This document shows positions 1-42,964 of a stretch of DNA of 64,000 bases, piece after piece. The stretch's first letter is position 1; each line of letters opens with the position of its first letter. The position numbers and the translations under genes were made by a program. The stretch covers positions 1 to 64,000 of the forward strand of contig NIVC01003051.1 of assembly GCA_002269645.1 (NCBI GenBank), given 5' to 3'. Below the pieces are notes generated by a model, which saw nothing but the letters and a program-made list of their open reading frames with translations, ran no database searches and was not told the origin of the DNA. Source of the DNA: Macrostomum lignano. Taxonomy: Eukaryota.

Positions 1-310
1 ATGATACTGCCGCACTAGCACTGGCGAGATAGGCGGCAATGCAAATGTATAGGGAAAAACACTGCGGAGATATGAGCCCTATCTCTGTGCATTGGGGACG
101 GCTAAGCACTGCAGAGATATGAGCTCTATCTCTGTGCATTGGGGACGGCTAAGCACTGCAGAGATATGAGCTCTATCTCTGTGCATTGGGGACGGCTAAG
201 CACTGCAGAGATATGAGCTCTATCTCTGTGCATTGGGGACGGCTAAGCACTGCAGAGATATATGAGCTCTATCTCTGTGCATTGGGGACGGCTAAGCACT
301 GCGGAGATAG
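1..310 (+). repeat. E1 left TIR (partial) with ~5 copies of a 47-bp hairpin-forming unit
   Basis: Unit CACTGCAGAGATATGAGCTCTATCTCTGTGCATTGGGGACGGCTAAG recurs at ~60, 107, 154, 201 and 248. A degenerate second copy of the TIR start lies at 319-432. Confidence 0.93.
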
Positions 311-3683: not shown

Positions 3684-6600
3684 GTTCAACAGTCAGCTTC
3701 AGCAGAGTTGCCCAAGCCTATGATCAATCACTGGAAATACTGAGGCTCAGATCGAGTCACCCAGACACGCTTCCGTCAGAATTTTTTGTCCAAGCTGGAG
3801 ACAAAATTATTGAGGCAGTTCAGCAAAGAATTTCAAGACATCATTACAAAGTTCAGCTAAAGGCGAATATTCGAATGGTCCGAATAAGAGATGGGGAGAT
3901 GCTTGCCGAAGAGGACAGATGGATAAGCTGTAAAATGCAGGCCCTAGACCTAGGTGGTGAAGCAGGCCGTTTAAACAACTGGTTGATTGAGCAGGAGCAG
4001 GAGTTGGAGAGGATCTGTAGTATGATTAATACGAACGGCAGTGGCTGGACAATTAAACAAATTAATTTTCTAGACATCAACCTTGCCAGGTACAATCCAA
4101 TTCGATTTCGCCAGGGCAGAGCCGTTAGATTCAATCTTCCTGCCAGTTTGAAGAACAAAAAGGCTGTTATCAATCCACCGAGCACAGGCAAAGACTGTTT
4201 CCTGTACGCCTGTCTCGCTGCACTGCACAGCGCCGATCCGAAAGTTCAGAAATCGCCCAACAGAATATCCTCTTACGATGAATGGTTGCGTGAGCTGGAC
4301 TTTGCAGAAATCTCCATGCCAGTGAGTGTCGCTGATATCGATCGCGTCGAGTCTAACAATCCAGGAATTTGCATTTCTGCGTTCTCTTGGCAGCAGGGCA
4401 GTGTGACTCTTCTCCGTCGCCGCAAGCATGAGTCAGATGACCGAAGACACCTCATGCTTTTGCTAGTTAAAGACAGCTACGGATCGGAGCACTGGTGTGC
4501 AATTACTAATTTTGACAGGTTAATGAACAGTCGTAATGGTCCCGCCATGAGGAAGTGGTGCACGAAATGTTTAACATCATTTTATAGCAACGAGAGGCTT
4601 CAAGAGCACAGGAACGAATGCAGCATTACTGCAGAAAATCCTGTCAAAGAAACGCTTCCAGTTCCAGGACAGAATGAAATAAAGTTCCGAAACTGTCAAA
4701 ACACTGTCAGTCCACCATTCGTTGCCTATGCCGACCTGGAAGCCATTTTGCGAGCGAACACAGACCCTGCTAACCTGATCTCAAAGCATGAACCATGTGC
4801 AGCAGCTTTTCTTGCAGTGCCTCGTGAAGGCATGACAGGACCTCCGCTTAGGCCAGAAGGAGACATGTACAAGGTCTTTTGCAATGCGGACCCTGATGAG
4901 TGTATCCTTGGTTTTCTCAAATCTCTTGAAAGCCTGGCTCAGGATATATTTCACTGGAACCAGAAGCATAGCCACCAGCCGGCTGACCGATCATCCGCGA
5001 CCGTCATGGATGATTTCAATTCTGCTGAGGTATGTCACTACTGCAAGAAGAACTTTAAAAGTTCTACAGATAAACATTTTGACCACGATCATTTAAATGG
5101 ACAGTACAAAGGTGCAGCATGTCAAGAATGCAACCTGCGAGCACAGCTCCGACGCCGGTTTCTGCCCCTGGTTTTTCACAACTTAGGCGGCTACGACCTT
5201 CATCTTCTACTTTCCACTGCGCTTGGGAGCATGAAAAATTGGAAACTTAGTGTTGTTCCGCAATCATCCGAGCGATACTTGTCACTAAGGGCGGAATTCC
5301 CTGTTGCAAGTTACGTAAAGAACGGAAAAGTTGTGCCAATCATGTTTACAATTCAGTTCATCGACTCGCTCTGCTTTTTGAAGGGAAGTTTGTCCAATTT
5401 GTTTGCTAATCTTCCCGAAGCTGAATGCAAGCTGACAATGCAAATGCTTGAGTCAAGACCACATCTTTCAAGAGAGCTACTTCGAAAAAAAGGGATTTTC
5501 CCATATGATTACCTCACAGGATTTGAGATTCTCGAGCAGTCGGTTTTGCCGCCTAAAGATGCTTTTTTTAATCGACTTTCCGATCGGGGAATTTCCGACG
5601 ACGACTACAATAGAGCAAGAGCGGCATGGGCGGCATTTCAATGCAAAAGTTTGAAGGATTATATGCTCGCCTATCTTGAAATGGATGTAAGGCAGCTGGC
5701 TGACATTTTCGAGACATTCCGACAGGCCAGTCTGAAAGAGGACGGATTGGATCCGGTACACTACTTTACTACTCCTGGTTTGTCTTACGACTCAGCTCTA
5801 AAGTCGACTGGAGTGGTTCTAGAGCAGCTGACTGATGCTGACATGTATCATCTGTTTGAGAAGGGAATACGAGGAGGCATGTCCTTCATTAATGTGCATT
5901 GCGTCAAAGGTAATAATCCTAGCTTGCCAGGTTATGATGATCAGCAAGAGAGTGTAAGCCTCATGCCGATCGATATGAACAACTTGTATGGCTTTGCCCT
6001 GTCGCTTCCGCTTCCATGCAGGGAATTCAGGTGGGTACCGGAACAGGAAATCCAGTTCTGGGACTCCAATCGGTTTCTGTCACTCAATCCAGAAGCCGAG
6101 ATCGCCTACCTTGTTCAACTCGATCTAGAATACCCAGCTGAGATTCACGATTCGACTCAGGAGTTACCGTTTGCACCTGAAAAATCAAAACCACAGCCAG
6201 ATCAATTCTCGCCGTACATGGCCGAACTATGGAAAGAGATTGCTGAACAGCGAACTGGCAATGCTGAAGCTAAGTTTCAAGCAACGGAGAAGCTTCTACT
6301 CACCTGTACCGACAAGGATTCTTACGTAGTTCACAGCACCGTTTTAAGATTTTACCTGCAACACGGAATGCGGATCAAGTGCGTCAAAAAAATGATTTCG
6401 TTCAAGCAGGAAAATATTTTCGCGCCGTACATTGCCAGCAACAATGAAAAAAGAGCTTTGGCAACTTCCGAGTTTGCTAAGGATTTTTACAAATTGAAAA
6501 ACAATTCTCTCTTTGGAAAAACTATGGAGAACGTTCGAAAAAGATGCGATGTTCGAATTTGCACTAACCAGACTCAAGCAGAAACTTGCGCCTCTCGACC

Positions 6601-7333
6601 AAACTGTGCCGCATTCTCGATTATCAATGAGTCGTTGAGCATTTTTCAGCTCAAAAAAGATAAAGTCACGCTTGACAAGGCCATTTTCGTTGGCCAGGCA
6701 GTTCTCGATCTCTCTAAGATGGCCATGTACAGCCTACTATATGACAGGCTCCGACCGCTGTTCTGTCATTCAGACGGTTCCAGAGACATGATGCTTTGCG
6801 GAGGTGATACTGACTCATTTTTTCTAGCTTTCAAGAATCATGATTTAACATCGGAGGTAATCCCGAAGCTTAGAGAGGAAAAAATACTTGACACATCCAA
6901 CTATTCTCGAGACCATCCGCATTTCTCTGAAGAGTTAAAAGGAAAGCTGGGCTGCGTTAAAGATGAATCTGCTGGTGGAATTTACCAGGAGTGGATTCTT
7001 TTGCGTCCAAAACTTTATTCGTTTCTCCCTGCCGAGAATTCGAGTGCAAAGATCAAGAAAACTGCCAAAGGCGTGAAGCAGTCAGTAGTAAGACAGCAAA
7101 TTTCGCATGCGAACTATGTCGACGCGTTCGAGTCCAAGCAAGAGCAGATGGTTGCCATGACAGCGATTGTTTCCAAGAAACACGAAATCTTCACGTCGGT
7201 CATGGAGAAAAGAAGCCTATCGGTGTGGGAGGATAAGCGAGTGTGGCTTAGCAGTAATCGAAGCCTGCCCTACGGACACTATGCGCTGACGCCCGCATCC
7301 CACGATCAGCTGAAGCGCATCCGACTGGTCTAG
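3684..7333 (+). CDS. polB: Protein-primed family B DNA polymerase (pPolB) with an endonuclease VII-like Zn/HNH insertion
   Basis: Frame open 3671-7333. Motifs: ExoI ADLE, FHNLGGYD, FIDSL, KGIFPYDY, YLEMDV, KGIRGG, DMNNLYG (A), KLKNNSLFGK (B), GGDTDS (C), and CHYC..FDHDHLNGQYKGAACQECN. Confidence 0.97.
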
Positions 7334-7915: not shown

Positions 7916-8488
7916 TTATTCAATGGAAAGAACTACATTGAGTAGACGCATGCTATCGGTATGCAACTGATTCAAGGACCGAGCTCCACTGAGAACAAAA
8001 GAGCCGCTGTGAAAAAGCAGACATTTACAAAAGTTTAAATTGAAAATTAAAGCAGAAAAGGATTCTGGTTCATATTCGGCGTTTGGGATAATTGATTTTA
8101 ACATTAATAAGGAAAGTGCGGAATGAACTGGGAGCTGTCCATGAGCAGTAATAGTTTTAATTCGAACACAAATTGTTTGATGAGGCAGCAGTTGAGCCGG
8201 CACTCTCCGATGCAGCATAGCCACGAAGCGACGGGCAGCCCTTTTGGCGTCTGCGTGGGTCTTGGCACCGCAGATGCTCAGTTGCCCAGTAGGGTAGAGT
8301 AGGAGAGTCACTCTGGGAATCCGCATCCGCTTGATGAGCACCCGGGGCCAGACGGGCCGGTAGATCACATGAGCCATGCTGAGAGCCAGTTCCCGTAGAG
8401 GCAGCTGAGCGCCCCTGCCACCATCCAGTCTCAGATCTACTCCGCCAACCAGATTGGTCACTCTTAGGGCTGTAGCTGGTGGGCTCAT
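7916..8488 (-). CDS. Divergent TATA-box-binding protein (TBP)-like protein
   Basis: Two TBP half-repeats. First: TNLVG..., LLLYPTGQLSICGAKTHADAKRAARRF. Second: YEPESFSALIF...LLFHSGSFVLSGARS. These align with TBP NIVS, [37 protein letters not shown] and LIFVSGKVVLTGAK. ATG at 8488. Confidence 0.88.
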   Translation of the reverse strand: MSPPATALRVTNLVGGVDLRLDGGRGAQLPLRELALSMAHVIYRPVWPRVLIKRMRIPRVTLLLYPTGQLSICGAKTHADAKRAARRFVAMLHRRVPAQLLPHQTICVRIKTITAHGQLPVHSALSLLMLKSIIPNAEYEPESFSALIFNLNFCKCLLFHSGSFVLSGARSLNQLHTDSMRLLNVVLSIE

Positions 8489-9007
8489 TTCGATCGTCAA
8501 CTTCTTCACCAAATCTGCTTCTGCCAACTTTACTGCTCGTGTGCCACGGACACTGCTCGCTTCTTAAGTTGATGCAGAACTTTGGCTTAAGCCAACTGTA
8601 GTGCAGCAACGAATTTCTCACTGCACAGCCAGTATCTGAATCTTCAGTCGAGGGTGCTCCCAAATCTTCTAGGTTATAAACCTGTCTTCCAAGCAGCTCA
8701 GTCAGAAAAATCGACTTCCTTTCCCCATTTGACCAGATCGGACCACTGGCAATGCTCAGAATGTCTTCCGCCAGTTCCATGTACGGACGGGTTCCATCAT
8801 TCCACTTAAACTGGTGCAGACTCTTAGATAGCTGTCTGTAGTAAACTCGCATGTCAGGTGAGACTCTCTCCCATGGATACGGAGGTGCGTACACATGGTG
8901 AGCAATGTGGTAGCTCCCCGCTCTGATTTGAACAACTGCCAACTCCTTCACAACAAATTTTTTGCTTGTGCTGTTGCACGGAATCCTTGGAAGTCAATGT
9001 AGTTCAT
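8157..9007 (-). CDS. Polinton accessory DEDD-like exonuclease-fold protein (frameshifted; true 3' end probably ~8550)
   Basis: MNYIDFQGF (ATG 9007) joins KFVVKELAV across a 1-bp loss in T6 at 8958-8963. Later motifs LH.F.W..G, VYNLEDLGAPS and CAVRN. Confidence 0.5.
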
Positions 9008-9107
9008 GATGCAGCTTTCCTTCGAAAATTTCGGAGTCAGTCCACCTTCTTATATACTTTTCTGGCAGGCAATTTCAGCCAGGCTGTGTTGCTCCCGTAC
9101 CCCTTGA

Positions 9108-9728
9108 CTAGACTCTCCTGTTCTTTCTCCAGTTCACCCCTCTGCTGGTTGCCATTTTCTTCTTAACTGATTTACCAACAGCGGAAAGCGGAACATTAAG
9201 CTTTTTCTGCTGCAGAAAATCGATGAACTCGTTCCACCCAACTGGTTCACGCTCACATGGCGAATCCCTCACTGTGTGCTGAATCAAGTCCAGTATGTTT
9301 GAGGAAGGGATTGACGTGCCTGCGATTTCCACCTCCCCGTTTTCACAAACTCGAATCAGCTCTGGATTGGTGGACAGGATCGTCCACAGACTGCGAGCCC
9401 TGGTTTTGAATTTCTGTGGCACCGACTTGCTGATCTTCTCTTCCCAGGTGCTTATCTGGGGTGTCTCTGTTTTCATCAACTTGGCTTCAGTATTGCGTGC
9501 TCCTTCTTTTCCAGCGTGCTTGCGCTTGGCCAGCAAACTTTGCATTGCACTTTGGTACATGGCGGTTTTCACATCTTCTGGACAATCCTCGGCATACAAG
9601 ATGTCATCGCATTTCTTCTGAGCCTGCTTCAAGTCAGCTTCAGTGGTAGTCTCATTTGGCTTCAAATTCTGCATCAACATCTCATACTCTGCTTTAGGAA
9701 TCAGAACCATTTCTGAAAATTTGTTCAT
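9108..9728 (-). CDS. Conserved Polinton hypothetical protein (homolog of E2 45356-46006)
   Basis: MNKFSEMVLIP..EY start and GEVEIAGTSIPSSNILDLI motif; E2 copy has MNKYVVVP and GKTWPGSNIFDLL. Confidence 0.7.
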   Translation of the reverse strand: MNKFSEMVLIPKAEYEMLMQNLKPNETTTEADLKQAQKKCDDILYAEDCPEDVKTAMYQSAMQSLLAKRKHAGKEGARNTEAKLMKTETPQISTWEEKISKSVPQKFKTRARSLWTILSTNPELIRVCENGEVEIAGTSIPSSNILDLIQHTVRDSPCEREPVGWNEFIDFLQQKKLNVPLSAVGKSVKKKMATSRGVNWRKNRRV

Positions 9729-10032
9729 TTTGCTTCTTCTTCTTTACCAGCTTAAGCAGAATCGGGAGTATTTTGATGAAGCCAGCCTTCAACAAGTCTG
9801 TCTTTCTTCTTTTGTGAGTAATTTTTCGAATTATCTCTTTTGACTTTGCAAGAACAGCTTTTTCATCGAGCGAAAACGATAGATTGTTTTGTAAGAGATT
9901 ATGGCAGGCCTCGACAAGAAAATAACGCACTTCTTTTGGACAATTTTTTATCAACAGCCGCTTGAAGCGCACGGTATATTTAGGTGACGCAAGAACCGCA
10001 AAAAGACTTGCATATGAATCAAGCACTTCCAT
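9694..10032 (-). CDS. Small basic virion core/membrane-active protein (homolog of E2 46008-46364)
   Basis: LVEACHNLLQNNL resembles E2 LCELSHNVLRGNI. C-terminal AG|FIKILPILLKL hydrophobic helix. ATG 10032. Confidence 0.65.
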   Translation of the reverse strand: MEVLDSYASLFAVLASPKYTVRFKRLLIKNCPKEVRYFLVEACHNLLQNNLSFSLDEKAVLAKSKEIIRKITHKRRKTDLLKAGFIKILPILLKLVKKKKQNEQIFRNGSDS

Positions 10033-10073
10033 TGCGATGAAAACAATAGCTGATAAAAACAAGCTTCACTTTC

Positions 10074-10719
10074 TTAAGCAAATACAAGATGGGGTCGCTG
10101 GTTGGGCAGAATTCTGGCCCGCACTCGCAGCTCATCGGGAGTTGATGGTGAAAGTCTAGGAACAGGTAGGCTCCCCTGCCCTGCGCGGTCACGTGCTTGA
10201 ACACTGACAGCAGAAAGCCGGGCTTCTCTGTAAAGCACTGCCTGCCCAGTGCTGCAATCTGCAGCTGGTCTCGGGGTTTTTCAAGATAGCTAAGTACATT
10301 ACATTCAAGCTCATTGTTCGCGACTCTTTTCCCTTGAAAAATATATTCTGAGTCAGCATCACCAAAAAGCACGGCAAGTGATGTGCGATTCCTGTGAAAA
10401 AATTTCGCATTGAAGCAGAGTTTGAAGTTTCCTCTATTAAGTCATCGAAAACAACCAGGTCATTGGGCCTAAGTGCTGCCTCGATGTTGGTGGGAAATCC
10501 CTGGCGCAGCTGCACACCTAGGCTGTTCAGTTCTGCATGGCCTGCCTGTGAGATCCCATAGTACCACAGAACTCTGCCAGGCTTCACATCAAACATGACG
10601 TCTCTGTACTGGATCAGGTGTTCGACAAAGGTTGTTTTTCCTGCATTGGTGGGCCCGCAGACAATCATGCAGCTTCCCTGCCTGAGGCGGATATCGTAGC
10701 AAACTTGCTTTTCTCCCAT
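10074..10719 (-). CDS. A32/FtsK-like packaging ATPase (two 1-bp frameshifts)
   Basis: Walker A GPTNAGKT, Walker B VVFDD, LTQNIF..GK.SRTMSLN. Frames rejoin as KNPRD.LQI and HPSTPDELRVRARILP; stop at 10074-10076. Confidence 0.92.
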
Positions 10720-10742
10720 GTTTAATGCATAAATATTAGAAA

Positions 10743-11255
10743 TCACGGACATCTTTTTCTTAAGTTGGCTTCAAACCTCTGTAAGATTCTATCATTCAAA
10801 TGATTTTTCTCATTAGCATGCAAATGCTTCAAAATCCCCTCAAATGACCGATTGAACAGAAACTTTTGATAAGCAAAATAGATGCAAAACATTCCGCATT
10901 TATTAGAGTTAGCACATTGAACTCTGTTTATATTGCTTCGGAGCCAAAAGCCAGTTGTTTTAATCTCTCGAAACAAATTATAAACCAAAGATAAAATTTC
11001 AGGTTCCCAGCCGAGGGAGTTGAACAACTCAATGCGATTTCCTTGCCCAACATAGCACACCACCCAGTGACCAAATGAGCCATTGTGCTGAAGTAGGACA
11101 AAAACAAACTTGTTTTCAAAGGAAATTGATGATCTAAATTTTCTTTTTACATTCAAGGGCAGAGAATTTTTATAGCGCAAATGTAAAGTAACTATGAGAA
11201 ATTTTTGGTAAGGCAAAAATTTTCTGGCGAGATTAAGTAGTTGAATTGCATCCAT
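10743..11255 (-). CDS. Adenain-like (Ulp1/C5 clan) maturation cysteine protease
   Basis: GHWV (His), FNSLG, VQ...SNKCG (Gln, Cys). Confidence 0.88.
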   Translation of the reverse strand: MDAIQLLNLARKFLPYQKFLIVTLHLRYKNSLPLNVKRKFRSSISFENKFVFVLLQHNGSFGHWVVCYVGQGNRIELFNSLGWEPEILSLVYNLFREIKTTGFWLRSNINRVQCANSNKCGMFCIYFAYQKFLFNRSFEGILKHLHANEKNHLNDRILQRFEANLRKRCP

Positions 11256-11260
11256 GTCAA

Positions 11261-12542
11261 TTAAGAGGAATAGTCCAGCAAAAGCTCTCGGTGCTTGGTG
11301 ACCTCAATCAGCGAGTCATACAGGCACATAGCAATCAGGGACACCGCTTCATTCAGAGCCTGTTGGAAGCGAATCTCCAGCCGCAGGTTGCCCTCCTTCT
11401 GTCCGTACCACAGAGCCGCTCCCTCGGGTGTGAGATCGAATGCAAACACCGTGGTGTTGTTGGAGAAGAGCTGGTAGGGGATCCACGGACCGAGTTTGTG
11501 TGGCTTGCAGATTGACAGCTTTTCAGGTAGTGCAAGTATTCTCTTACGAAGGAATTGTTTTCAGGTGTGAAGGCGCCGTGGCACACGGTTTCCCCACCTT
11601 TCTTTAGAGCCAATCGGCTAAGGTTGAAGCTCTGGAACTGTAACGGGCTCGCGTGATGATGACCGTTGAATGCTCGGTGGCTCACGAAGGCCAGCATGAT
11701 GAACTTCGGCAATTTTCCATGAGTGAATCCTTCAATGTTTTTTGACTGAATACCCTGGGGTAGGATGAAGTTCTGCATTTCAGTTCGCTCGATGGGATAC
11801 AGTGCATTTTGGTTTGTCAGCCCCTGCTCATGGGCCAGGCTGATGTGGGGCATCACTTTGACTCGGCGAAGATGCAGAATGCTGTGAGAGATTTCCATTC
11901 GGTATGCCGCGTTGTTTGCATTCGGGGTTCTGATGGCAAAGGCCCCATCGCTGGGACCAGTTTGATGTGCAGGTGCAGATTGCTTAGCAGAAACACTGGG
12001 CACTGGAAAACATCGCTGAAGAGCGGCCCCGCATACTCCATCCATTGGGATTCCCTGTGGCTCTCCGTGTGCTCTTCAGCTGCCGAGTTCGGCTCCAGGA
12101 AGCCAGCAGGGTAAAGTTTTAGTTGCTGGGCATCGGATGAGCTCATTAGTGCTTTGAAGTACGCATGGTAGGGATAGAGCTGGTCTCCACCAGACACCAC
12201 TCGCTGGTTAATGCTCACAATTACATCTGAGAAGGCTGTAGACAGAACAAAATTTTCTGGGTGCACGTCACTGTCTCTGCGCTCGGTGATGATGCCATCT
12301 CCATCTCGAACATCCTCCCTCAGCAAACCCCCATCCAGTCTCACAAGGCGGCAGCGAATATAAAGAAAAGAATTAAGCAGATCTGTATATTCATCGGCAG
12401 ATTGGTGGCAGTCAAATTCAATGGGAGAGTTTGCAACAATGGAATTAACTGGGTGAATATCAACATAAGTAGCTTTTTCAATGCAGGTTTGTAGAACGGG
12501 CGTCTTAAATAAATCAAGTCTGGGATTGAATCCGTAAGCCAT
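11261..12542 (-). CDS. Double jelly-roll major capsid protein (Polinton PY), two frameshifts
   Basis: LDLFKTP, DIHPVNS..SPIEF, LHLRRVKV, ALYPIERT, FNG....PLQFQ, FAFDLTP...GNLRLEIRF, spread over ORFs 11853-12542, 11353-12045 and 11261-11449. Confidence 0.92.
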
Positions 12543-12544
12543 GT

Positions 12545-12922
12545 CTATGACAGAGAGTCGAGCACGCGTTTCACAGTTTTCTTGCTGACTTTTTGCTTTC
12601 GCTTTCCTCCGCCTGCTCTATTCTTCTTTGCTTTCGTCTTCCTATTCTTAAGCTTTTTCCCACTAGCCTTGCTCGACCTCTTACTGCGATTTCCACCAGT
12701 TGCCTTTCGGGTGCCCTTCTTTTTCTTCAATCGTTTCGGACTTGCTTCAGTATTTCTTTTGCGCCTGACGTTGCTAAGCGTCGAGGCTGATGATGATGAT
12801 ATAGCCGCTGGCGGAGGCTGGTATGTCATGATCCCTGGGAAGCTCCCACAGCCATAGAGTGCAGGCTTTTCGTGTCCTGTCCTCACCCCCGAATATTGCT
12901 GGATTAGCTGCTGGTAGTTCAT
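12545..12922 (-). CDS. Lys/Arg-rich core (DNA-condensing) protein with a GxG putative protease site
   Basis: ATG 12922. LYGCGSF followed by a very basic tail. Lies between mCP and MCP, as in E2. Confidence 0.65.
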   Translation of the reverse strand: MNYQQLIQQYSGVRTGHEKPALYGCGSFPGIMTYQPPPAAISSSSASTLSNVRRKRNTEASPKRLKKKKGTRKATGGNRSKRSSKASGKKLKNRKTKAKKNRAGGGKRKQKVSKKTVKRVLDSLS

Positions 12923-13727
12923 TGAATGCGTTTCTCCTGAATTTGAACTGTAAGCAGAACAGGGCTGTGAGTCTGTGCAATCAGTGGGCAACCATAGATG
13001 TCCGCAGCTGAACTCGAATGCTGTGAAGAAGACTGATTCGTTGAATCGGGAAGAATATTGTTTTCTTAAATATTTTTGTTTGATAGTTGCCCCATTCAAT
13101 GCCAGCTTTCATTCCAACTGTTCTCAACAAGGAGCTCCAGTTGCAATTAGTTGACTCAACGATACTGCAGTGCACATTGATTAAGCTGGTGCGCGGGCAG
13201 CCAATGCAATGCTCGGATACGCGGCTCCCTGGCTGGATTTTCACAGCCTGGTTTCCAAATCCCAGCCAATGCAGAATTTTACTAGATGGAAGAAACAGCT
13301 CTGCTCTCGCAGTGTTGTTGTGCACCACAGTTCGTGAGTTGCGGATTTCGAACTTCATACCAAATTCCCTGTTGCCACTACGCCCCATCAGGCCGGACTC
13401 ATCAGCCTCCATCTCAGACTCCCTGTCACTCATTGCATCAAAGAACAGCGAATCAGAGTTGGCCAGCAGCTCATTCAGGCGCTCCACCAGCTCCTCCACT
13501 CTAGCAAAGCGTCCGGGTTGAAGAACCAGGGCCTCATGCTCTCTTCCATCTGAGACAGTGAAGCAGTAAGGCTCGTCAACATTGAACCATGCAGCAGGCA
13601 GATGGATTTCAGCCAGACCTGCCTCATAGTCCACATTTCGATCCAAGTAAATAGGTGAAGGCAGGTAAAAATTAAAGTCACTAGGAGTACCTTCAGCATG
13701 CTCACTGTTAATCAAAATAGTTCGCAT
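12919..13727 (-). CDS. Minor capsid (penton, PX) protein; frameshift near 13010
   Basis: NS...SDFNFYLPSPIYL..YEAGLAEI..P, INVHCSIVES..LLR, HSIRVQL. The alternative frame ADIYGCPL...RIQ* ends at 12919. Confidence 0.85.
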
Positions 13728-13764
13728 TATAATCATAAACTACATGATGAGGGCTGTGCCAAAG

Positions 13765-14835
13765 CTAAACCTTTCTTAAGTCTTTTTCATCCACCCAGCC
13801 AGTCGAGTCGTAGCCCGCCCATTTCACCAGATAGCGAATTTTTCCCTTCCGCTTCTCCGTTTTCAGGATCTTCTCAATCACATACAGCCGCTGTGAGTCC
13901 GGGACAGCCTGCAGCTCGTGCTCATGGAAGAGTCCTCGAATCTCTTGCCCCCGCATGTCTTTAATCTTGTACATGTAGGGATAATGTTTTGGGGCTCTGC
14001 TCACCACGGTGTACACTTCCTCACTCCAGCTCGCTTTGTATCCCTTTTTGAATATCCGTGGAGCATTGGAAATTCTCACTGACTGGTTTTCAGCGAACTT
14101 AGGCTTCTTTAATTTTTCTAGAGTCTCGACTGCTTTTCCATCGTACAGGTTCATCCACACTTCAGATTCATTCTCTTTGCAGACACTAGTGGGTGCCATT
14201 TTGATGCTTCTGTGGTAGGTATTGTTGTAGGATTTTACCAGCTTAGGCAGCACATCAAGCCAGTGCAGTGTGCTCTTGTAGGTGAAGTAGCGCCACATTC
14301 TACTTTTCAGAGTTCGATTCCATCGCTCAATGACAGCTGCCTTCTGCTCGCTGTTAGTTGGGAAAGCCAGAATCCCTCTGTCAATGCAGTATTGACGGAA
14401 AGTGGAGTTGATAAATTCCTTCCCCTGATCTGTGCGAACTGTGCGTGGCTGGCGCTTTGAACTTCTCAGTATGCTCTCGAATGCTGACTTCACTTCTGCA
14501 GCAGATTTATTTTTCAGTGCCTTGGCCCAAGCACATTTTGAGAGCACGTCAATGCATGTGAGAATATATTTGTAGCCTTTATTATGCTTTGCGAATGGAA
14601 TCATTTCCACTAAGTCAAGTTCCCACTGATCATCGATTGCGCGCACTATGATTGGGGCCCTTGGATATCGCCTCCTAGCTGGCTTGTGCAGAGTGTGCAC
14701 TGGCTGCTCGCTGAGCCACTGCTCAATGCTCTTTGCAGATATTCGATCACCTCTTTGCCTCACTTCATGCAGCAACTTTGAGGCACAAGAAAAACTAGCC
14801 GGTTGCTCAGGTTTCAAATAAATTTTCTCCATCAT
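13765..14835 (-). CDS. Retroviral-like (rve) integrase with C-terminal chromodomain
   Basis: DDE triad WELD / TDQGKEF / IERWNRTLK; YVIEKILK...YLVKWAGY. ORF intact. Confidence 0.96.
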   Translation of the reverse strand: MMEKIYLKPEQPASFSCASKLLHEVRQRGDRISAKSIEQWLSEQPVHTLHKPARRRYPRAPIIVRAIDDQWELDLVEMIPFAKHNKGYKYILTCIDVLSKCAWAKALKNKSAAEVKSAFESILRSSKRQPRTVRTDQGKEFINSTFRQYCIDRGILAFPTNSEQKAAVIERWNRTLKSRMWRYFTYKSTLHWLDVLPKLVKSYNNTYHRSIKMAPTSVCKENESEVWMNLYDGKAVETLEKLKKPKFAENQSVRISNAPRIFKKGYKASWSEEVYTVVSRAPKHYPYMYKIKDMRGQEIRGLFHEHELQAVPDSQRLYVIEKILKTEKRKGKIRYLVKWAGYDSTGWVDEKDLRKV

Positions 14836-15155: not shown

Positions 15156-15932
15156 TCAGTTATCAAAGCGAACATTGGGCTGCAGCCTCATCGCGTCCTG
15201 CCGACGAAGTTGAAATGGCAGCTTTCGCTTCCTGCTGCTGCTGCTCACCGTCGAAGCCGCTGCATGCGCCCTGAACTGATACCACACCGGATCTTCCTCA
15301 AGGTTGGTGTCCCGCTGCGGAAGCAGTCCAGCATCAGAATCAACCGAAGGTATCGGTGTGGATGTGATTGGCTCAGTCACAATGCGCGGCCTTGTGGGCG
15401 AGCTAACGTCCTCGTCATCAGCATGATCTCCGCCCTCATCAGTCTCCATTATGGGCTTCGTGTCCTGGTCAGCCTCCAACTTGAGCTTCTTGTCCTCTTC
15501 CTCCTCTTCCTCATCAGACTCCAGCTCGTACTGCATTGTGTTCCTCAAGGGAGCCACCAGCTGACCGTCGATCCAGGAGGCGATTTTCCAGAGCTTCTGC
15601 CACAGCGGCGGAGTCAGTGGTACGGCGTTTCGTCTCAAAAACTCCTCGCAGCAATCTTCCGGCAGCCGTTTGAGCCAAATGATGCCGCCTTTGACTTCCA
15701 CAAACTTATCGAAGCCGAGTTTCACGACCTTGGGCTCGTTGTTGCGTGCAGAAATCACAAGTGAGCGTTTCACCTCCTTCAATTTCTTCCATTGGTGAAC
15801 ATTCAGGTTGAATCCTGGGACGCCTGGCTTCAGACTTGCCGTGCTGCCGTGTCGGTAAAATTTGCGAATAGCGATAAATTTTTGTCCTTCAAACTCCTGG
15901 ACTTGTGCCTTATAGCCTTCACAGATGTCCAT
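15156..15932 (-). CDS. PC4/Sub1-like ssDNA-binding/coactivator protein with two PC4-like units and an acidic/basic tail
   Basis: VQEFEGQKFIAIRKFY...LKPGVPGFNLNVHQWKKL resembles PC4 VRDFKGKVLIDIREYW..MKPGRKGISLNPEQWSQL. A degenerate second unit ends AVPLTPPLWQKL. Confidence 0.8.
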   Translation of the reverse strand: MDICEGYKAQVQEFEGQKFIAIRKFYRHGSTASLKPGVPGFNLNVHQWKKLKEVKRSLVISARNNEPKVVKLGFDKFVEVKGGIIWLKRLPEDCCEEFLRRNAVPLTPPLWQKLWKIASWIDGQLVAPLRNTMQYELESDEEEEEEDKKLKLEADQDTKPIMETDEGGDHADDEDVSSPTRPRIVTEPITSTPIPSVDSDAGLLPQRDTNLEEDPVWYQFRAHAAASTVSSSSRKRKLPFQLRRQDAMRLQPNVRFDN

Positions 15933-16134
15933 TTTCCTTTCGCAATTGAAAACTCACAAAAGTTAAAAGCTGAGGAAAATTTCGGATGAAATTTTGGATT
16001 TGAAAAATTGAGAATTCTTCCTTGTCAATTTCGGGGCTTATATACCCTCGACCGAACCACCCCAAACCACCCATCCCACTCCGGGCTCTGTGATTGGCTC
16101 TTTCGCAAACATTATTTCCAATTACATAGATTAA

Positions 16135-20805: not shown

Positions 20806-23800
20806 TCTAATCTCTCTCTTCATATCTCTAACCTCTATCTCTATCTCTAATCTCCATCTTCATATCTAATCTCTCTCTCCCTATCTCTAATCTCTATCTC
20901 CATACCTAATCTCTCCACCAATCTATATCTCTCTCCACATATCTAATCTTTCTCTTTATATCTAATCTCTGACCCCATGTTTTATCTCTCTTCCTATAGT
21001 TAATTCTCTCTCATACCTAATCTCTCTCCCAATCTCTAATCTCTGTACCTGTGTCCAATGCCTCACTCTGCACAAAGCTATCTAAATCATGAAACCCCAA
21101 TAAAATTATGCAATCACCTGACACTTGAACGGCTTCACTCCCGTATGCGTCACCATATGCTTGTTAACGTCTCCCTTGTCAGCGAATCGTTTCTGACAGA
21201 TCGGACAGGGGAACTGCCTCTGACCGGTGTGGCAGGTCAGGTGTCGGCGCAGATTAGTGTGCTGGTGAAAGCACTTGGCGCAGTAGGCGCACTGGTAGCA
21301 TCTCTGATCCCCTCTGCCGCCTGTCTTCCTCAGCCGATGCACCGACTTGACGTGGTTGGCCAGCAGATGGGATTCAGCGAACGCCGACTGGCAAATGGCA
21401 CAGATGCACGGCCGAGAGAACGACGAGCCGGAGCCGACTCCGACATCATCAGCCATCGGATCGTCGCCATCCTCGTCGCTGGCATCATTCTCGTCGTAGC
21501 CGTCGTCTTCATCGGAATCATCTTGAGCAGACTGGTGCGCGTCCTCTGAGTGTCGTTTGAGTCCAGCCAGGCTGGGGAACCACCGACCACAGCGGGGGCA
21601 CTCGTAACTGCCCGGATGGCTCAACAGGTGCCGGCGTAGTTCAGCTTCATCAACAAACCGACGATCGCACAGGGTGCAACGAGGACCGCTAATATTTTTA
21701 TTACTATTACTATTAGTAGTAGTATTATTATTAAGACTTCTAAGCCGACGCTGCTTCTTTGGAGACGAGCCAGCCTCTTCTCCGTCATCTCCTTGGTCAG
21801 GCCGATCAGTAGTCTCAACTTCGACATCGTCAGCCGACTGTCCGCGGCTGCTGAATTGCAGCAGACGAGAGTCGCGCAGATGGGCCTGACGAACGTGCCG
21901 GCTCAGGTATTCAACACGAGCGTAGCAGTTTCCGCATAGACGGCACTGGAATCGCTTGCGACTGCCTTCGGGTAGAAGCACCAGAGCGCTCTGCAGTGCG
22001 TCGTGTACTGACAGAGGCTCCTGATTAGAATTAGCTTCATCACCTGGTTCCTCATCAACCAGTTCCGTTGGAGCTTTTCTAGGCGAACTGGACATTGCGG
22101 TGAAGCCTTCTTGGGCCGCTACCAGAGCGCGAACCTTGAGAAAAAGAAGACAAAATATTGTTTTTATTATTGTGGTATGTGGCATTAATTTCTTAGCTCA
22201 CGGATTTAGCTTCAGATGTGGCGCAAAATATACCCTACTCTGTATTGTAGCATCAGATTTGGCGCTAAAAATACCCTACTCTCTCTTTCGTAGCTTCAGA
22301 TGTGGCGCCAAAATACCCTACTCTCTCAGTTAGCTGCAGATATGACAGCAAAAATACCCTACACTCTCTCTTGTAGCTTCAGGTGTGGCGCCAAAAATAC
22401 CCTTCTCTCTCTTGCAGCTTCAGATGTGGCGCCAAAATACCCTACTCTCTCTTGCAGCTTCAGATGTGGCGCTTAAAGATACCCTACTCTCTCTTTTAGC
22501 TTCAGATGTGGCGCCAAAAAATACCCTACTCTCTCTTGTAGCTTCTGATGTGGCGCCAAAAAAATACCCTACTCTCTCTTGTAGCTTCAGATGTGACGCC
22601 AAAAATACCCTACTCTCTCTTGTAGCTTCAGATGTGGCGCCAAAAAGTACCCTACTCTCTCTCTTGTAGCTTCAGATGTGGCGCCAAAGATTACCCTTCA
22701 CTTTCTTGTAGTTTTAGATATGGCGCCAAAAATACCCTACTCTCTCTTGTAGCTTCAGATGTGGCGCCAAAAATACCCTACTCTCTCTTGTAGCTTTAGA
22801 TGTGGCGCCAAAAATACCCTACTCTCTCTTGTAGCTTCAGATGTGGCGCCAAAAATACCCTACTCTTTCTTGTAGCTTTAGATGTGGCGCCAAAAATACC
22901 CTACTCTCTCTTGTAGCTTCAGATGTGGCGCCAAAATACCCTACTCTCTCAGTTAGCTTCAGATGTGGCGCCAAAATACCCTACTCTCTCTTGTAGCTTC
23001 AGACTTGACGCTAAAAATATTCTACCTTTCTTGTAGCTTCAGTTGTGGCACCAAGATGTCTTGAAACTTCAGATGTGGCGCCAGATGTGGCTTATGTCTT
23101 TCTTGTAGCTTCAGATCTGACGCCAAAAATACCCTACTCTCTCTTGTAGCTTCAGATGTGGCAGCAAAAATACCCTACTCTCTCTTGTAGCTTCAGATGT
23201 GGCGCCAAAATACCCTACTCTCTCTTATAGCTTCAGATGTGGCGCCAAAAATACCCTACTCTCTCTTGTAGCTTCAGATGTGGCAGCAAAAATACCCTAC
23301 TCTCTCTTGTGGCTTCAGATGTGGCAGCAAAAATACCCTACTCTCTCTTGTGGCTTCAGATGTGGCAGCAAAAATACCCTACTCTCTCTTGTAGCTTCTG
23401 ATGTGGCGCCAAAAATACCCTACTCTCTCTTGTAGCTTCAGATCGGACGCCAAAATCACGGGTCCTCTATAGCTTCAGCCTGATGTCAGAAAAGCAATTA
23501 GAATTGGAAAACTGGCATAGCTAAATTAAAAGACAGGACAAACCGCTAACCTGACTGCCAACGCTATCCGACAATCTTTTAGAAGCGGTTGCAACCCGAA
23601 TAGTCGATATTGGCGCAGTGGAGCTAACGGCAGTTGAATTAGTTGACATTGACACCGGTTTCACAGCCGATCTGGGTATGCTGATAACACAGCAATTATT
23701 TCTTCGTTCCACTGTAATACCACTAGACGAAGTTGTAGCTGTATTGTTAGTAGAACCTACTATGCTACTAACAGTAGCTGGAGTCACTGCACCAACAGAT

Positions 23801-39282: not shown

Positions 39283-39960
39283 ACTACGTAATGCGCAGAT
39301 AACGGTTGATTTTGGAGGTGAGGTGGGTGTCAGAGCCAATGCAAATTCAACGCCTATCTAAATGCATTAGACCTCTTCTAATTGGTCCAGACCCTCATTA
39401 TGATTCATGTAAGTCATTATGTGAGATATTCATGCATGTAACTCTCATGTAAATCTAATTATACATGTAATCAGTGTACATTCCCATTAGTACATTGTGT
39501 CGTACAGAAGCGACGACCAGTACAATATAGTACGCATAATTAGCGCTTCACCGTAGCAGTTGTTGTACGCAGAAGCGCGCGCGCGCCCAGCCCAGCACAA
39601 TGCAGCATTGGTGTACGCAGAATTAACTGTCCATATACCAAAAATTGGCAGAATTAACGTGCGCCGACCCACCCCATAACTGTCCATATTATTACTTGTC
39701 CATATTTACTGTCCATCCCAAAATTGGTGTACGCGCAGAATTGTAGCGCCCGCCCACCCCATAGCTGTTCGATCATACCCAAAATTGGTGCACGCGCAGA
39801 ATTAGAGCCCACCCATCCAAGAAAATATTTTGTCGCCCCTCACAATTAATTGGCGGCCCCACGCGGAGACATGATGAGTCAGCCGCTGTAAATCGCTGCT
39901 GTCCACACTGTTATATCCACCCCTTCCAAACTTCACTCTCTAGAATTCTGCCCTCGTCGA
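39283..39960 (+). repeat. E2 left TIR (with insertions relative to the right TIR)
   Basis: Reverse complement of ~48972-49475 with indels of about 14-55 bp. Confidence 0.9.
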
Positions 39961-40073
39961 CACTCCGAGACAATTACGTCATCCCCCAACCCCCTCTCCC
40001 AAATAAGTTTTCAAAAGGCGTATAGCTATATATATTTACACAAAAAGCCGGCCGAGCTTTGATACGTATATAT

Positions 40074-40724
40074 TTATTTAGCATACACAATTGGGTGACG
40101 ACCCAAAACGTTTGAATAATAGCGAGCAGGAGCATTTTGCAAACAGTTTACAATCAAGTATGAGTAGGGGTCGCGAGTAGCATCCTCATACGTTTTGACA
40201 AAACTTTTTGGATTAGTGGGGACCAGCTGCCTTGCAATATGAGACACTGTGCTGGCATCCCGTATATTGCGGAATAAAACAAGGTAGTTCGAATTGAGCG
40301 ACTGAGTTCGGTGCTCCTTACCCTTTGCAAACAGGTTTTGCACAAGATACCAAAGTCGGAACCCCACGTGGGAGACTTTGCGCGTGAAAAAAGTTGTAAA
40401 AGCGCCACTCTTTTCCATGGCATGCATTTGGTCGTCGACGACAAGCAGAATATTTGGTTCAGGGACATATTGTTCAGGATCAAATGTACACGAACGAAAA
40501 TTTACAGGGTCCGGCAATTCAAACAGTTCAGGATCCGGATAGTGGCCAAACCAGTCTACGCGAATCGGCTTCGGATCTTGAAAAAATTCTTGTCTCAATA
40601 GGTTTTTCACAAGTGTGGTCTTACCGCTTTGAGCCACCCCAGGAAAAATTGCCGACGTTTTGGGGGCAAATTTTAAAGAGTCGGGGTCTATTGTTTGATA
40701 CATTTTGATAGGCAGCCCAATCAT
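40074..40724 (-). CDS. Packaging ATPase
   Basis: GVAQSGKT, LLVVDDQM, QNLFAKGKEHRTQSLNSNYLVLFRNIRD. Confidence 0.93.
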   Translation of the reverse strand: MIGLPIKMYQTIDPDSLKFAPKTSAIFPGVAQSGKTTLVKNLLRQEFFQDPKPIRVDWFGHYPDPELFELPDPVNFRSCTFDPEQYVPEPNILLVVDDQMHAMEKSGAFTTFFTRKVSHVGFRLWYLVQNLFAKGKEHRTQSLNSNYLVLFRNIRDASTVSHIARQLVPTNPKSFVKTYEDATRDPYSYLIVNCLQNAPARYYSNVLGRHPIVYAK

Positions 40725-40726
40725 AT

Positions 40727-41178
40727 TTATAGATGATGCTGCTTTATTTGTAGACAGTGATTCTGCACCATCAAGTCGTTCTCGTAAAGATTTGTGCTAT
40801 AACAGTCGCGCAATATTTTTTCAATTGACAGACCCTCCAAAAAGTGTTTTTCAGCCACAAATATTACATGAGCCCCGCAGGTCACACTTAGCTGATGCTG
40901 TACAGGATGCCGGTTCATGGCCACCTCCACAGGGACACATACTTTGCGATCCACAACTTTAATAAATCTGGCACAGGATCGATACACAAGGGGTCAAAAA
41001 ATGTCACGCTCTCATCGGCATGAAGACAAATTAAAGCCCAGTGAGTGCCTGGTAGATTGCCAGTGTCAAAGTTAATCACGTATGCAGCAGGATAAACAGG
41101 CTGCGGAATCCTGTCAACTGGTGTTACTCGAACAGGGACAGGTAGTATTAGACGTTCTAATATATCTAGACTATTCAT
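40727..41178 (-). CDS. Adenain-like cysteine protease (frameshift ~40930)
   Basis: VINFD..PGTHW, FFDP, VQ...SVTCG. Confidence 0.88.
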
Positions 41179-41226
41179 ATCGGCATGAATATGGTCGTTA
41201 TTCGAGAATAAAAAAGATGTTTGTTT

Positions 41227-42509
41227 CTACACGTAGTCTAGAATAACCTGACGACCGCGAGTGATTTGCACAGTATTGTCAAAGTAGCCAAACACCAACA
41301 CGTTGATTCCTGCGGCCAAGGCAGCAGAAAACTTTATTTGTAGCGTCAGATTCCCTCGCTCGCGAGGCATGCTATGCCCGCCCAGCTCCATGTCGGGCAT
41401 GAGATTCCAGGCGAAGAAGCAGTAGCCAGCTCCATAGTCGGAATATGATACGTCAATATCAGGTCCCGATTCATCTTTCCTAGGCTTTTTAGTAGCATGG
41501 CATACTCGCGAGCATAGTTATGAACACCGAATCGAGGAGTAAACGGTTGTCCACACAGACTGACTCCGTCCTTATACAGAGCGACACTGTCTTCCCCAAA
41601 CGGTTCAAAATTAAACGGGTTATGTGTAGCCACACCGTTGTATGCGCCGCTGTTCACCATGCCAACAACCACTAGTTTAGGCTTTTGTTCAGGAAATATA
41701 TTATTGATTGACATGTCCCGAACACCGCCAGCCACTGAAGTATTGTGCACAACAAGTCGCTCAATCGGATAGATTGCATTCTGTTTGCCTAGTTGTTCTT
41801 CAATCTCCAATGCCAATTGGGGGTTTGCCTTGACGCGGCGCACATGTAGTTTGGCACTCTCGAGCACCAGCCGCGCATCAACCCCGTCCGCTTGGTTTTC
41901 CAGAACGAAGCCGGAATTGTGCATGGTCAGCGTAATTACCATATCAGTGTATGGCAGTAGCATTCGGTCGTTGGTAACAAAAAAGTCTAAACTAAGAGGT
42001 CCATAAAGGTGAAAGGTGCGTGAGTTTGCCGCCATCGCCTTGCGGGCTACAAAGCCAGGATTTCCAACCACAGCCATTTGACCTCCAGCGTCCTTTGCGT
42101 AGCCCATCATTCTCAGTTGGTTGGTTTTTGAATCGTGTCCGTAATTCAAACACGTGCGAATGTAGGCCTTGTAAGCGTGGTTGTTATTGCTCGACTCTAC
42201 GTGTGTCCCGTTGATTGTCAACGTGACGTTTTTAAACATGCTTTCAAGGACGTAATTGACCGGCGCAACATTCGAATCAGCAGCAAGATTTGTGCCATTA
42301 GACTGCCTAACGCGGGCCTTAATCTCGAGGTCAATGTCGTTAAGATCGATAAACGTCTCACCACCAACAATCCTAAATTCGACCACGCTGGCATTTTCAA
42401 CACTGGCAACAGGGTGAACTTCTTCAGTGGTTGCGCTAATTGCAGCAATTTGGTGTGCGCGAGGAGCAAACAGCTCGAATTCCGACTTTGTACACAGGCA
42501 CTCAGTCAT
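41227..42509 (-). CDS. Major capsid protein (frameshift ~41440)
   Basis: KSEFELF..P, HPVAS..VEF, DLNDI, LHVRRVK, YPIER, NPFNF. C-terminus GNLTLQIKF...VILDYV* in the next frame. Confidence 0.92.
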
Positions 42510-42632
42510 TTTTCTTTCAACAGCGGCTTAGTGTGGTGTTCTAATAGACAGATCAGTTATTGGCACGGGTTTTTTTATTTATAGAGTCGAAAATATCAGA
42601 ATGCTGCAGTCTTTTTCTCGTTTTTTTGTTAG

Positions 42633-42920
42633 TCATTTTCTTCGTCTTTGTCTGCCGCTACCTCGTTGTGCGACTGTGTCCTTGAAAGCATCTTTAGCTG
42701 CCTGGACAGAGTTACGCAATGCCGCTTCTTTCAAGTTCCCGCCTTGATCGAGTGTGTCGCTAACTGTTGTAGCTAGGGCTCGTGTTCCGTGGCGAAGAAT
42801 ATTTTTGCCAAAACTCTTTAAAATTGGCAGGGCAAATCGGGCAATGCTGCCAAACAGGCCGTTGCCGCGCTGTGCACCGGAAAATACCGGTAAAGCTCCT
42901 CCGATCAAGATTGAAGGCAT
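42633..42920 (-). CDS. Small basic core protein with GxG protease sites
   Basis: QRGNGLFGSIARFALP...QRGSGRQRRRK. Confidence 0.75.
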   Translation of the reverse strand: MPSILIGGALPVFSGAQRGNGLFGSIARFALPILKSFGKNILRHGTRALATTVSDTLDQGGNLKEAALRNSVQAAKDAFKDTVAQRGSGRQRRRK

Positions 42921-42964
42921 ATTGTCGATCAGTTGCCACCCTTTATTCGTGAAAACTTCTTTAT

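What the first reader, a model, noticed from the sequence alone, without database searches (positions are those of the whole stretch)
7916..8488. A Polinton/adintovirus encodes its own divergent TATA-binding protein
Seen: an intact, intronless ~190-aa ORF inside the TIRs with both TBP half-repeats. The second repeat keeps the two DNA-intercalating Phe (ESF, LLF); the first has W/Y at the corresponding positions, and the second contact Asn appears replaced by Thr. Established: TBP-like genes occur in giant viruses, and beta/gamma herpesviruses use a TBP mimic (ORF24/BcRF1/UL87) for late genes. I do not recall TBP as a recognised Polinton gene. Inference: a dedicated late-transcription factor with altered DNA specificity that redirects host Pol II.
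Basis: partly seen in the sequence, partly recalled or inferred. Interest (0 to 1): 0.95.

Follow-up and report, generated by a model that had tools for sequence, protein, structure and literature searches.

The report
Polinton viruses carry their own TBP
A virus-like jumping element in a flatworm genome carries its own altered TATA-binding protein, and its capsid and packaging genes sit behind a matching altered TATA-like box, which points to a built-in switch for late viral genes that has not yet been shown by experiment.

Summary
Confirmed: window 7916-8488(-) is an intact, intronless 190-aa TBP-fold gene (Pfam E 8e-25; model pLDDT 96, TM 0.82-0.84 to TBP) inside a young, multi-copy Polinton of Macrostomum lignano. 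It is not a one-off capture: 152 matches in the genome, dN/dS 0.15-0.41, a grouping with host TBP rejected (AU p 2e-6). All four Polinton lineages examined carry TBP-like genes (lineage D in 2 of 4 loci), as do 5 of 20 metagenome loci. Each lineage has its own sense-strand box before structural genes: CTTAAGAA (6 vs 0.2 shuffled), YATAAGAA, TATAAGY, TATAAATA; early-type genes have GTATATAAG. Positions made polar (V122, T124, V161) are those changed in herpesvirus ORF24, but the acidic TFIIB stirrup is kept. Best reading (0.65): an element-encoded late-gene TBP. One correction: alignments put Pro48, not Trp47, at the first Phe. Against: no expression or binding data; host TBP may tolerate the box; a residue-to-box rule failed on a held-out locus. 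Prior art: one figure-legend label (Starrett 2021); this scan noted Polinton TBPs before on other DNA (2 notes).

The parts
7916..8488 (-). Element-encoded TBP-like protein (vTBP, lineage A), 190 aa
8561..8568 (-). CTTAAGAA box, 80 nt before the vTBP start, inside the upstream ORF
   Evidence: kept in 30 of 30 close copies and 13 of 13 lineage-A subfamily loci
10071..10078 (-). CTTAAGAA box, 46 nt before the 112-aa gene
10757..10764 (-). CTTAAGAA box before the packaging ATPase (12 nt to the first ATG, 45 nt to the ATG that matches the start in a sister subfamily)
12645..12652 (-). CTTAAGAA box, 110 nt before the major capsid gene, inside the upstream basic ORF
13773..13780 (-). CTTAAGAA box, 44 nt before the putative minor capsid gene, inside the last integrase codons
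14887..14894 (-). CTTAAGAA box, 59 nt before the integrase, non-coding
13063..13070 (-). Variant box TTTAAGAA before the basic (core-protein-like) ORF
16037..16044 (-). Canonical TATATAAG before the PC4 gene (early-type promoter, inferred)
9049..9056 (-). Canonical TATATAAG before the ORF directly upstream of vTBP (early-type promoter, inferred)
8157..9007 (-). ORF upstream of vTBP, in pieces in this copy; a relative has predicted-structure neighbours among unnamed arthropod and Preplasmiviricota proteins and, more weakly, DEDD exonucleases
3875..7333 (+). Protein-primed DNA polymerase B
   Evidence: PF03175 E 2e-12
9108..10032 (-). Two conserved unnamed Polinton genes (206 and 112 aa)
10189..10752 (-). 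Packaging ATPase (P-loop; broken in this copy)
   Evidence: only weak P-loop Pfam hits; 85% to the sister subfamily
10743..11255 (-). Adenovirus-type C5 maturation protease
   Evidence: PF00770 E 7e-5
11353..12542 (-). Major capsid protein, in pieces in this copy
   Evidence: homologous to the lineage-B protein whose model matches double-jelly-roll capsids, Foldseek E 1.5e-17
12545..13736 (-). Basic core-protein-like ORF and putative minor capsid gene (by position only; no Pfam hit)
13765..14835 (-). rve integrase with chromodomain
   Evidence: PF00665 E 3e-13, PF00385 E 1e-5
15156..15932 (-). PC4-domain protein
   Evidence: PF02229 E 5.5e-8
1..309 (.). Left terminal inverted repeat, cut by the contig start
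16373..16712 (.). Right terminal inverted repeat, ending in ACTACT
39283..49474 (-). Second Polinton (lineage B, no PolB in this copy) with 8 sense-strand TATAAATA boxes
46505..46995 (-). Far-diverged TBP-like gene of lineage B, broken in this copy

Best explanation
The gene is a long-standing Polinton (adintovirus-type) gene for a minimal TBP that runs an early-to-late switch in the nucleus. Shown: fold, copy number, selection, separate ancestry, and a lineage-specific box before the structural genes. Inferred: (1) host TBP fires the genes with canonical GTATATAAG (PC4, and the ORF upstream of vTBP, whose transcript may carry vTBP); (2) vTBP binds CTTAAGAA, a TATA variant changed at positions 1, 2 and 6, through a more polar minor-groove face (V122S, T124C, N159T, V161T, P191S); (3) it recruits host TFIIB through the kept acidic stirrup (E140/E142) and so Pol II, starting about 25-30 nt downstream; (4) this drives integrase, capsid, ATPase and, in lineage A, vTBP itself as a positive loop.
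For: TBP fold. 152 matches in the genome; 29 of 30 fetched close copies sit beside the PolB end. dN/dS 0.15-0.41 in 12 of 12 subfamily pairs; 22 of 28 DNA-facing positions invariant against 85 of 149 others. Polinton TBPs lie outside the eukaryotic TBP/TRF2 clade (94/91) and a grouping with host TBP is rejected, p-AU 2e-6. Boxes, sense/antisense/shuffle mean: A CTTAAGAA 6/0/0.2 and 5/0/0.1; C [CT]ATAAGAA 5/0/0.2; D TATAAG[CT] 5/0, 7/1, 5/0, 6/0 against 0.5-0.9; B TATAAATA 8/0/0.1 and 5/1/0.3; 0 of 200 shuffles reach these, and no lineage is enriched for another's box. The six A sites lie 44-110 nt before starts and fall in non-coding DNA and three reading frames, so codons do not explain them; two lie well inside upstream ORFs, unlike poly(A) signals. 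KSHV ORF24, a proven late-gene TBP mimic, also has polar residues at V122, T124 and V161. The stirrup EPE is kept in 17 of 17 rows of A1. P191, reported to restrict position 1 to T, is lost, and position 1 is C.
Against: No expression, start-site or binding data. Single-position rules allow wild-type TBP to take C1, T2 and G6, so host TBP is not excluded. Lineage B has the most diverged vTBP yet a canonical-looking box, and its gene has no ATG near the start of the domain in one subfamily. In lineage D a TBP-like gene was found in 2 of 4 loci although all 4 have the box. Of 5 metagenome Polinton loci with a TBP only L071 shows an enriched box (ATAAGAG 6 vs 0.83), and it has F116/L122, against my rule that G6 goes with Y116 and S/T122. 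The motif was first picked by eye from this sequence, and my positional test used hand-chosen starts. The first Phe is replaced by Pro, which may weaken DNA bending. The protease gene has no box of its own.
Confidence: 0.65

Rival explanations
1. The boxes are weak promoters read by host TBP or TRF2; vTBP has another job, such as a decoy that titrates TFIIB/TFIIA/NC2/Mot1 or dampens host transcription.
For: Wild-type TBP accommodates G6 and any base at 1; lineage B uses TATAAATA; vTBP lacks one intercalating Phe and N159, as host TRF2 lacks several.
Against: Four different boxes under one host TBP, each lineage with its own diverged TBP gene; DNA-facing positions are more conserved than the rest; early-type genes keep the canonical TATA while structural genes do not.
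Confidence: 0.17
2. The boxes are late promoters for the RNA polymerase of a helper virus (as virophages share promoter motifs with giant viruses); vTBP serves early genes or shut-off.
For: Boxes of A, C, D and L071 contain (A/T)TAAG, the baculovirus late core (recalled, not checked in a paper); shared regulatory elements between virophages and giant viruses are stated in the abstract opening of PMC11464507 (search listing).
Against: Lineage B lacks TAAG; the bare TTAAG/ATAAG is not strand-biased in A (12 sense, 14 antisense), only the full box is; four boxes would need several helpers; the TBP-fold gene travels with the cassette.
Confidence: 0.08
3. vTBP is a general booster: it binds all element promoters, canonical and variant, to make the element independent of limiting or repressed host TFIID (for instance in the germ line), with no temporal switch.
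For: In lineage C the vTBP gene itself and one cassette gene have canonical TATAAAA; integrase, not a classic late gene, has the box; a second Pol II cofactor homologue (PC4) is on the element.
Against: Two promoter classes are kept apart in A and B (GTATATAA versus the lineage box).
Confidence: 0.08
4. The gene is a hitch-hiking, recently captured host TBP/TRF copy without function, and the motif is chance.
For: Whole-window count of CTTAAGAA is not significant; the present family is very young (99-100% identity).
Against: 29% identity to host TBP, AU rejection, dN/dS well under 1, homologues in four lineages and in unrelated contigs.
Confidence: 0.02

Closest known systems
Beta/gamma-herpesvirus vTBP (KSHV ORF24; EBV BcRF1 and HCMV UL87 recalled)
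   Same: Viral TBP-fold protein tied to a variant TATA box of late genes; polar changes at V122, T124, V161 (PMC12529657 Table 1).
   Different: ORF24 is 752 aa with Pol II-binding and DNA-binding extra domains, works in a six-protein complex, keeps all four Phe, N159 and P191, and lacks the acidic TFIIB residues. This protein is a bare 190-aa core, keeps the stirrup, loses F99, N159, P191, and is recognisable by sequence as TBP. ORF24's function is proven; this one's is not.
Cellular TBP / TRF2 (PF00352)
   Same: Two-repeat saddle, N69, V71, L114, F190, F207, stirrup EPE, basic helix 2.
   Different: 14 of 31 checked host positions kept; 5-6 residue insertions in both linkers; outside the eukaryotic TBP/TRF2 clade.
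TBP-labelled gene in a MELD virus with adintovirus-like PolB (Starrett et al. 2021, PMC8502044, Fig. 5 legend)
   Same: A TBP-like gene in a Polinton-related element is already in print as a label.
   Different: A legend entry only, in the section on non-animal datasets; the main text has one TBP mention, no promoter motif, no function; the section on adintovirus genes does not list it. The figure is not held, so I could not see which element bears it.
TBP-like proteins of Nucleocytoviricota and mirusviruses
   Same: Virus-encoded TBP fold (BFVD hits, TM 0.6-0.73; listing).
   Different: Those viruses mostly bring their own RNA polymerase (recalled); identity is 8-20%, lower than to cellular TBP (23-27%); this element has no polymerase for RNA.
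Polintons/Mavericks (adintoviruses)
   Same: PolB, rve integrase, ATPase, C5 protease, double-jelly-roll capsid, TIRs, 6-bp target duplication in sister copies.
   Different: TBP and a late box are not among the described genes in the papers I searched (0 hits for TBP/TATA in PMC8097293 and the 2026 PLV framework preprint).

Membership tests
TBP family (PF00352) | Two TBP repeats above the Pfam cut-off | tested here: met
   2 stretches, 87 bits vs 22.9
TBP family (PF00352) | Saddle fold | tested here: met
   pLDDT 96.3; TM 0.82-0.84
Canonical eukaryotic TBP (TATA-reading) | Four intercalating Phe, both Asn, P191 | tested here: not met
   F99 aligns with Pro48, F116 is Tyr, N159 Thr, P191 Ser; F190, F207, N69 kept
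Canonical eukaryotic TBP / TRF2 | Descent within the eukaryotic TBP/TRF clade | tested here: not met
   Outside the 94/91 clade; grouping with host TBP rejected, p-AU 2e-6; grouping with TRF2 not put to the AU test
Canonical eukaryotic TBP | Acidic TFIIB-binding stirrup | tested here: met
   E140-P141-E142 invariant in 17 of 17 rows; binding itself not tested
Herpesvirus vTBP (ORF24 family) | Large multi-domain protein with Pol II-binding N-terminus and C-terminal DNA-binding domain | tested here: not met
   190 aa core only against 752 aa
Herpesvirus vTBP (works like) | Variant TATA box before structural genes | tested here: met
Herpesvirus vTBP (works like) | Binds the box and is needed for late transcription | not testable with these tools
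   needs binding assays and knock-down
Polinton/Maverick (adintovirus) | Protein-primed PolB and rve integrase | tested here: met
Polinton/Maverick (adintovirus) | Packaging ATPase, C5 protease, double-jelly-roll capsid | tested here: met
   protease; ATPase weak P-loop hits only; capsid through a lineage-B homologue
Polinton/Maverick (adintovirus) | Terminal inverted repeats and 6-bp target duplication | tested here: inconclusive
   TIRs present; duplication not testable for this copy (left end cut); seen for the lineage B and C copies checked
Alpha versus Beta adintovirus class | PolB and capsid clade | not tested
   no reference set in hand

The most novel reading that the evidence does not exclude
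A large part of animal Polintons are autonomous nuclear viruses with the smallest known late-transcription switch: one 18-21 kDa TBP that replaces host TBP, keeps TFIIB, and has co-evolved with its box into mutually orthogonal pairs (CTTAAGAA, YATAAGAA, TATAAGY, TATAAATA, TATAAGAG), so that several families in one genome do not fire each other. This would be a second, independent origin of the herpesvirus late-gene strategy and a natural code for TBP specificity.
Probability: 0.35. Interest if true: 0.92.

Novelty: new variant of a known kind. Interest (0 to 1): 0.8.

Why it matters
How Polintons time and drive their capsid genes, and whether they need a helper virus, is open. A self-encoded TBP with a matching box gives named parts to test: promoter positions, a protein, and four natural protein-box pairs in one laboratory flatworm. 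If true, it argues for a helper-free viral cycle, shows that TBP mimicry for late genes arose outside herpesviruses in a much simpler form, and offers natural altered-specificity TBPs for studying TATA recognition and for orthogonal promoters.

Tried and rejected
1) Lineage B as a TBP-less control: rejected; my profile found a far-diverged TBP-like gene in it (74 matches; Pfam 22.6 bits, just under the cut-off, for one subfamily and no hit for the other). No TBP-less lineage was found, so that control is missing. 2) Rule 'G6 box goes with Y116 and S/T122': fits A, C, D against B and host, but fails on L071 and is untestable on L072-L074/L087. 3) 'Proline swap between repeats': depends on placing Trp47 at F99, which the alignments do not support; dropped. 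4) Expression: no RNA holder on record; four runs guessed to be RNA are contigs that cover all 30 bins with no joints and no start sites; no evidence either way. 5) viral contigs: 4 scans (A1, P0040, P0084, A6) confirmed nothing; two broader alignments had no usable pattern. 6) Word-index searches found only Macrostomum-like relatives (5 of 256 candidates; 10 of 2199); wider relatives came from the HMMER scan and A4, without names or hosts. 7) Monophyly of all Polinton TBPs: not resolved; A+C+L071 group had SH 83 in the quick 73-row tree and is an open fork in the careful 34-row tree; B and D are long branches that meet. 8) No TBP hit in the stretches fetched for two of four D loci nor in L056. 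9) Print searches that gave no description of a Polinton TBP with a promoter box; supplement search of PMC8502044 had 0 hits in 1 file. Subscription papers, Repbase reports, figures and bioRxiv supplements could not be seen and may hold more. 10) Patikoglou 1999 was not held; its rules are cited through PMC13566119 and PMC1636458. 11) No complex prediction with TFIIB was sent: a textbook pair would pass by likeness. 12) The second structural alignment to settle the Trp47/Pro48 register did not complete.

Full report
What is there. Window 7916-8488(-) encodes 190 aa without stop or intron. It matches Pfam TBP twice (E 7.9e-25) and solved TBPs by sequence (35 of 36 hits). The AlphaFold2 model, made with a 79-row alignment that included cellular TBPs, has pLDDT 96.3 and pTM 0.87 and overlays TBP with TM 0.82-0.84. 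The gene lies in a 16.7-kb Polinton: PolB, C5 protease, rve-chromo integrase and a PC4-domain gene by Pfam, a weakly scoring P-loop ATPase, a capsid gene whose lineage-B homologue folds like PBCV-1, mavirus and Sputnik capsids, and inverted repeats. The left end is cut by the contig start. Several genes of this copy are in pieces; the TBP gene is not. A near-identical protein is labelled Macrostomum lignano by its source.

Not a one-off. The genome gives 152 matches (231 candidates, 150 scored, so a lower bound), in subfamilies at 100, 89, 80, 77 and 75% and a separate group at 38%. Of 30 close copies fetched, 29 include the PolB end and 28 the upstream cassette, at 99-100% DNA identity. Among 11 subfamily representatives dN/dS is 0.15-0.41 in 12 of 12 pairs computed (pairs are not independent), and 22 of 28 DNA-facing positions are invariant against 85 of 149 others. 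Host TBP and a TRF2-like gene were fetched; vTBP is 29% identical to host TBP. In a careful 34-row tree the host genes sit in a eukaryotic clade (94/91) without any Polinton protein, and forcing lineage A with host TBP is rejected (p-AU 2e-6). Whether all Polinton TBPs have one origin is unresolved, although all share loss of N159 with Thr/Ser at V161.

Four lineages, four boxes. I first took the second Polinton in the window (39283-49474, lineage B) for a TBP-less control; it is not. A profile from 113 fetched TBP-like proteins found a far-diverged gene at about 46505-46995, with 74 matches in the genome and open frames of 178-197 aa in many. Lineage C (38%) has one beside PC4, lineage D in 2 of 4 loci fetched. 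On the coding strand of each cassette one TATA-like word is enriched (sense/antisense/shuffle mean, 200 shuffles, none reaching the count): A CTTAAGAA 6/0/0.2 and 5/0/0.1; C [CT]ATAAGAA 5/0/0.2; D TATAAG[CT] 5/0/0.5, 7/1/0.9, 5/0/0.5, 6/0/0.7; B TATAAATA 8/0/0.1 and 5/1/0.3. CTTAAGAA and TATAAATA were the top 8-mers of an unbiased count in A and B. Over the whole window CTTAAGAA is not significant (7 vs 3.74). The six A sites lie 59, 44, 110, 45, 46 and 80 nt before gene starts; about 13% of the strand is so placed (P about 4e-6, with hand-chosen starts). They fall in non-coding DNA and three frames, and TTA is the rarest Leu codon of the element (28 of 320). The site before vTBP is kept in 30 of 30 close copies and 13 of 13 subfamily loci whose upstream DNA is 74-98% alike. 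PC4 and the ORF upstream of vTBP have canonical GTATATAAG instead, as does the first gene in B.

Beyond this genome. A HMMER scan of 1.84 billion proteins gave, among the best 150, unnamed proteins with the same N159/V161 signature. A metagenome scan with their alignment confirmed 20 loci; in 5 of 20 (L071-L074, L087, perhaps three independent elements) the TBP gene stands among integrase, ATPase, capsid and protease homologues; L086 has one beside a homologue of the upstream ORF; the other 14 look cellular or have no labelled neighbour. Only L071 shows a box (ATAAGAG 6 vs 0.83); the others are 3-5 kb fragments with none. Hosts are unknown. Two earlier notes of this scan report Polinton TBPs in other genomes, one with a TATAAAC box; they are unchecked and came after my reading was recorded.

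The DNA face. With yeast numbering from Table 1 of PMC12529657 (section read): kept N69, V71, L114, F190, L205, F207, V213; changed F99 to Pro48 (Trp47 next to it), F116 to Tyr, V122 to Ser, T124 to Cys, N159 and V161 to Thr, P191 to Ser, T215 to Ser. KSHV ORF24 has Asn at V122, T124 and V161, the same central positions, but lacks the acidic TFIIB residues, which vTBP keeps. So C1 fits the loss of P191, but CTTAAGAA is a poor, not a forbidden, site for host TBP (the 'poor' is inference from three combined changes). A neat rule tying G6 to Y116 and S/T122 held for A, C, D against B and failed on L071.

Mechanism. Most likely (0.65): host TBP starts the GTATATAAG genes; vTBP is made, possibly from the upstream ORF's transcript (its stop abuts the vTBP ATG in five subfamily loci); vTBP binds the box, recruits TFIIB and Pol II, and turns on integrase, capsid and packaging genes and, in lineage A, itself. 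Every step from expression on is inferred; sequencing runs gave no usable RNA evidence. Rivals: host-read boxes with a decoy vTBP (0.17), helper-virus promoters (0.08), a general booster without timing (0.08), functionless capture (0.02).

What is known. It works like herpesvirus vTBP but is not a member of that family (bare core, stirrup kept). It is a TBP-family protein but not a canonical TBP. [quoted passage not shown] PMC8097293 and 10.64898/2026.06.19.733378 have no TBP or TATA in the main text (term search); PMC12220804 had none relevant. Seven searches showed no paper on a conserved Polinton TBP or its promoter box; subscription papers and Repbase were out of reach.

Verdict. Observation confirmed with one residue correction; interpretation partly supported and widened from one gene to a recurring protein-plus-box pair. 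New variant of a known kind; interest 0.8.

Noticed in passing
window 7916-8488 against L031-L046: The vTBP gene is a mosaic: codons 8-117 differ little between close subfamilies (dS 0.07-0.09) while codons 118-184 are saturated, and the 290 nt past the stop do not align in 13 of 13 lineage-A loci. With PolB at about 52% but ATPase at 85% to a sister subfamily, the polymerase and capsid modules seem to be exchanged at a point inside this gene.
   Followed up: partly
window 15156-15932; L047 7864-8298: A PC4-domain gene (a second Pol II cofactor homologue) in lineages A and C, behind a canonical TATA; PC4 has 0 mentions in PMC8502044.
   Followed up: partly
window 39283-49474; L047/L048: Copies of lineages B and C with both ends and 6-bp target duplications but no PolB gene, so probably moved in trans.
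   Followed up: partly
L065 115-705, L066 299-832, L062 4471-5025: TBP-like frames of lineages B and D lack an ATG at the start of the domain and in B overlap the end of the upstream gene; splicing, frameshifting or a non-ATG start would be needed.
   Followed up: no
window 8157-9007: ORF upstream of vTBP belongs to an unnamed family common in arthropods and Preplasmiviricota, with a weak DEDD-exonuclease/Maelstrom likeness; a homologue also flanks the TBP gene in L086.
   Followed up: partly
L061-L064, L069: Lineage D carries a dUTPase-like gene, a parvovirus-VP1-type phospholipase-like ORF and, in L069, a nucleoside-kinase-like ORF (labels by eye from motifs, recalled; no family search).
   Followed up: no
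L056 422-1198: A Fic-domain gene (Pfam E 6.6e-14) just beyond a lineage-B cassette; whether it is inside the element was not settled.
   Followed up: no
L050: A lineage-A copy in which integrase is followed directly by the protease: the capsid genes between them are missing.
   Followed up: no
window 27986-38256: LTR-retrotransposon-like element: long direct repeats 9.5 kb apart with gag- and integrase-like ORFs on the minus strand.
   Followed up: no
window 21106-22185: Host C2H2 zinc-finger gene.
   Followed up: no
G000 C70, C713, C1301; C350, C3090, C3513: Host TBP and TRF2-like genes each appear in three identical-scoring copies with intron-free cores.
   Followed up: no
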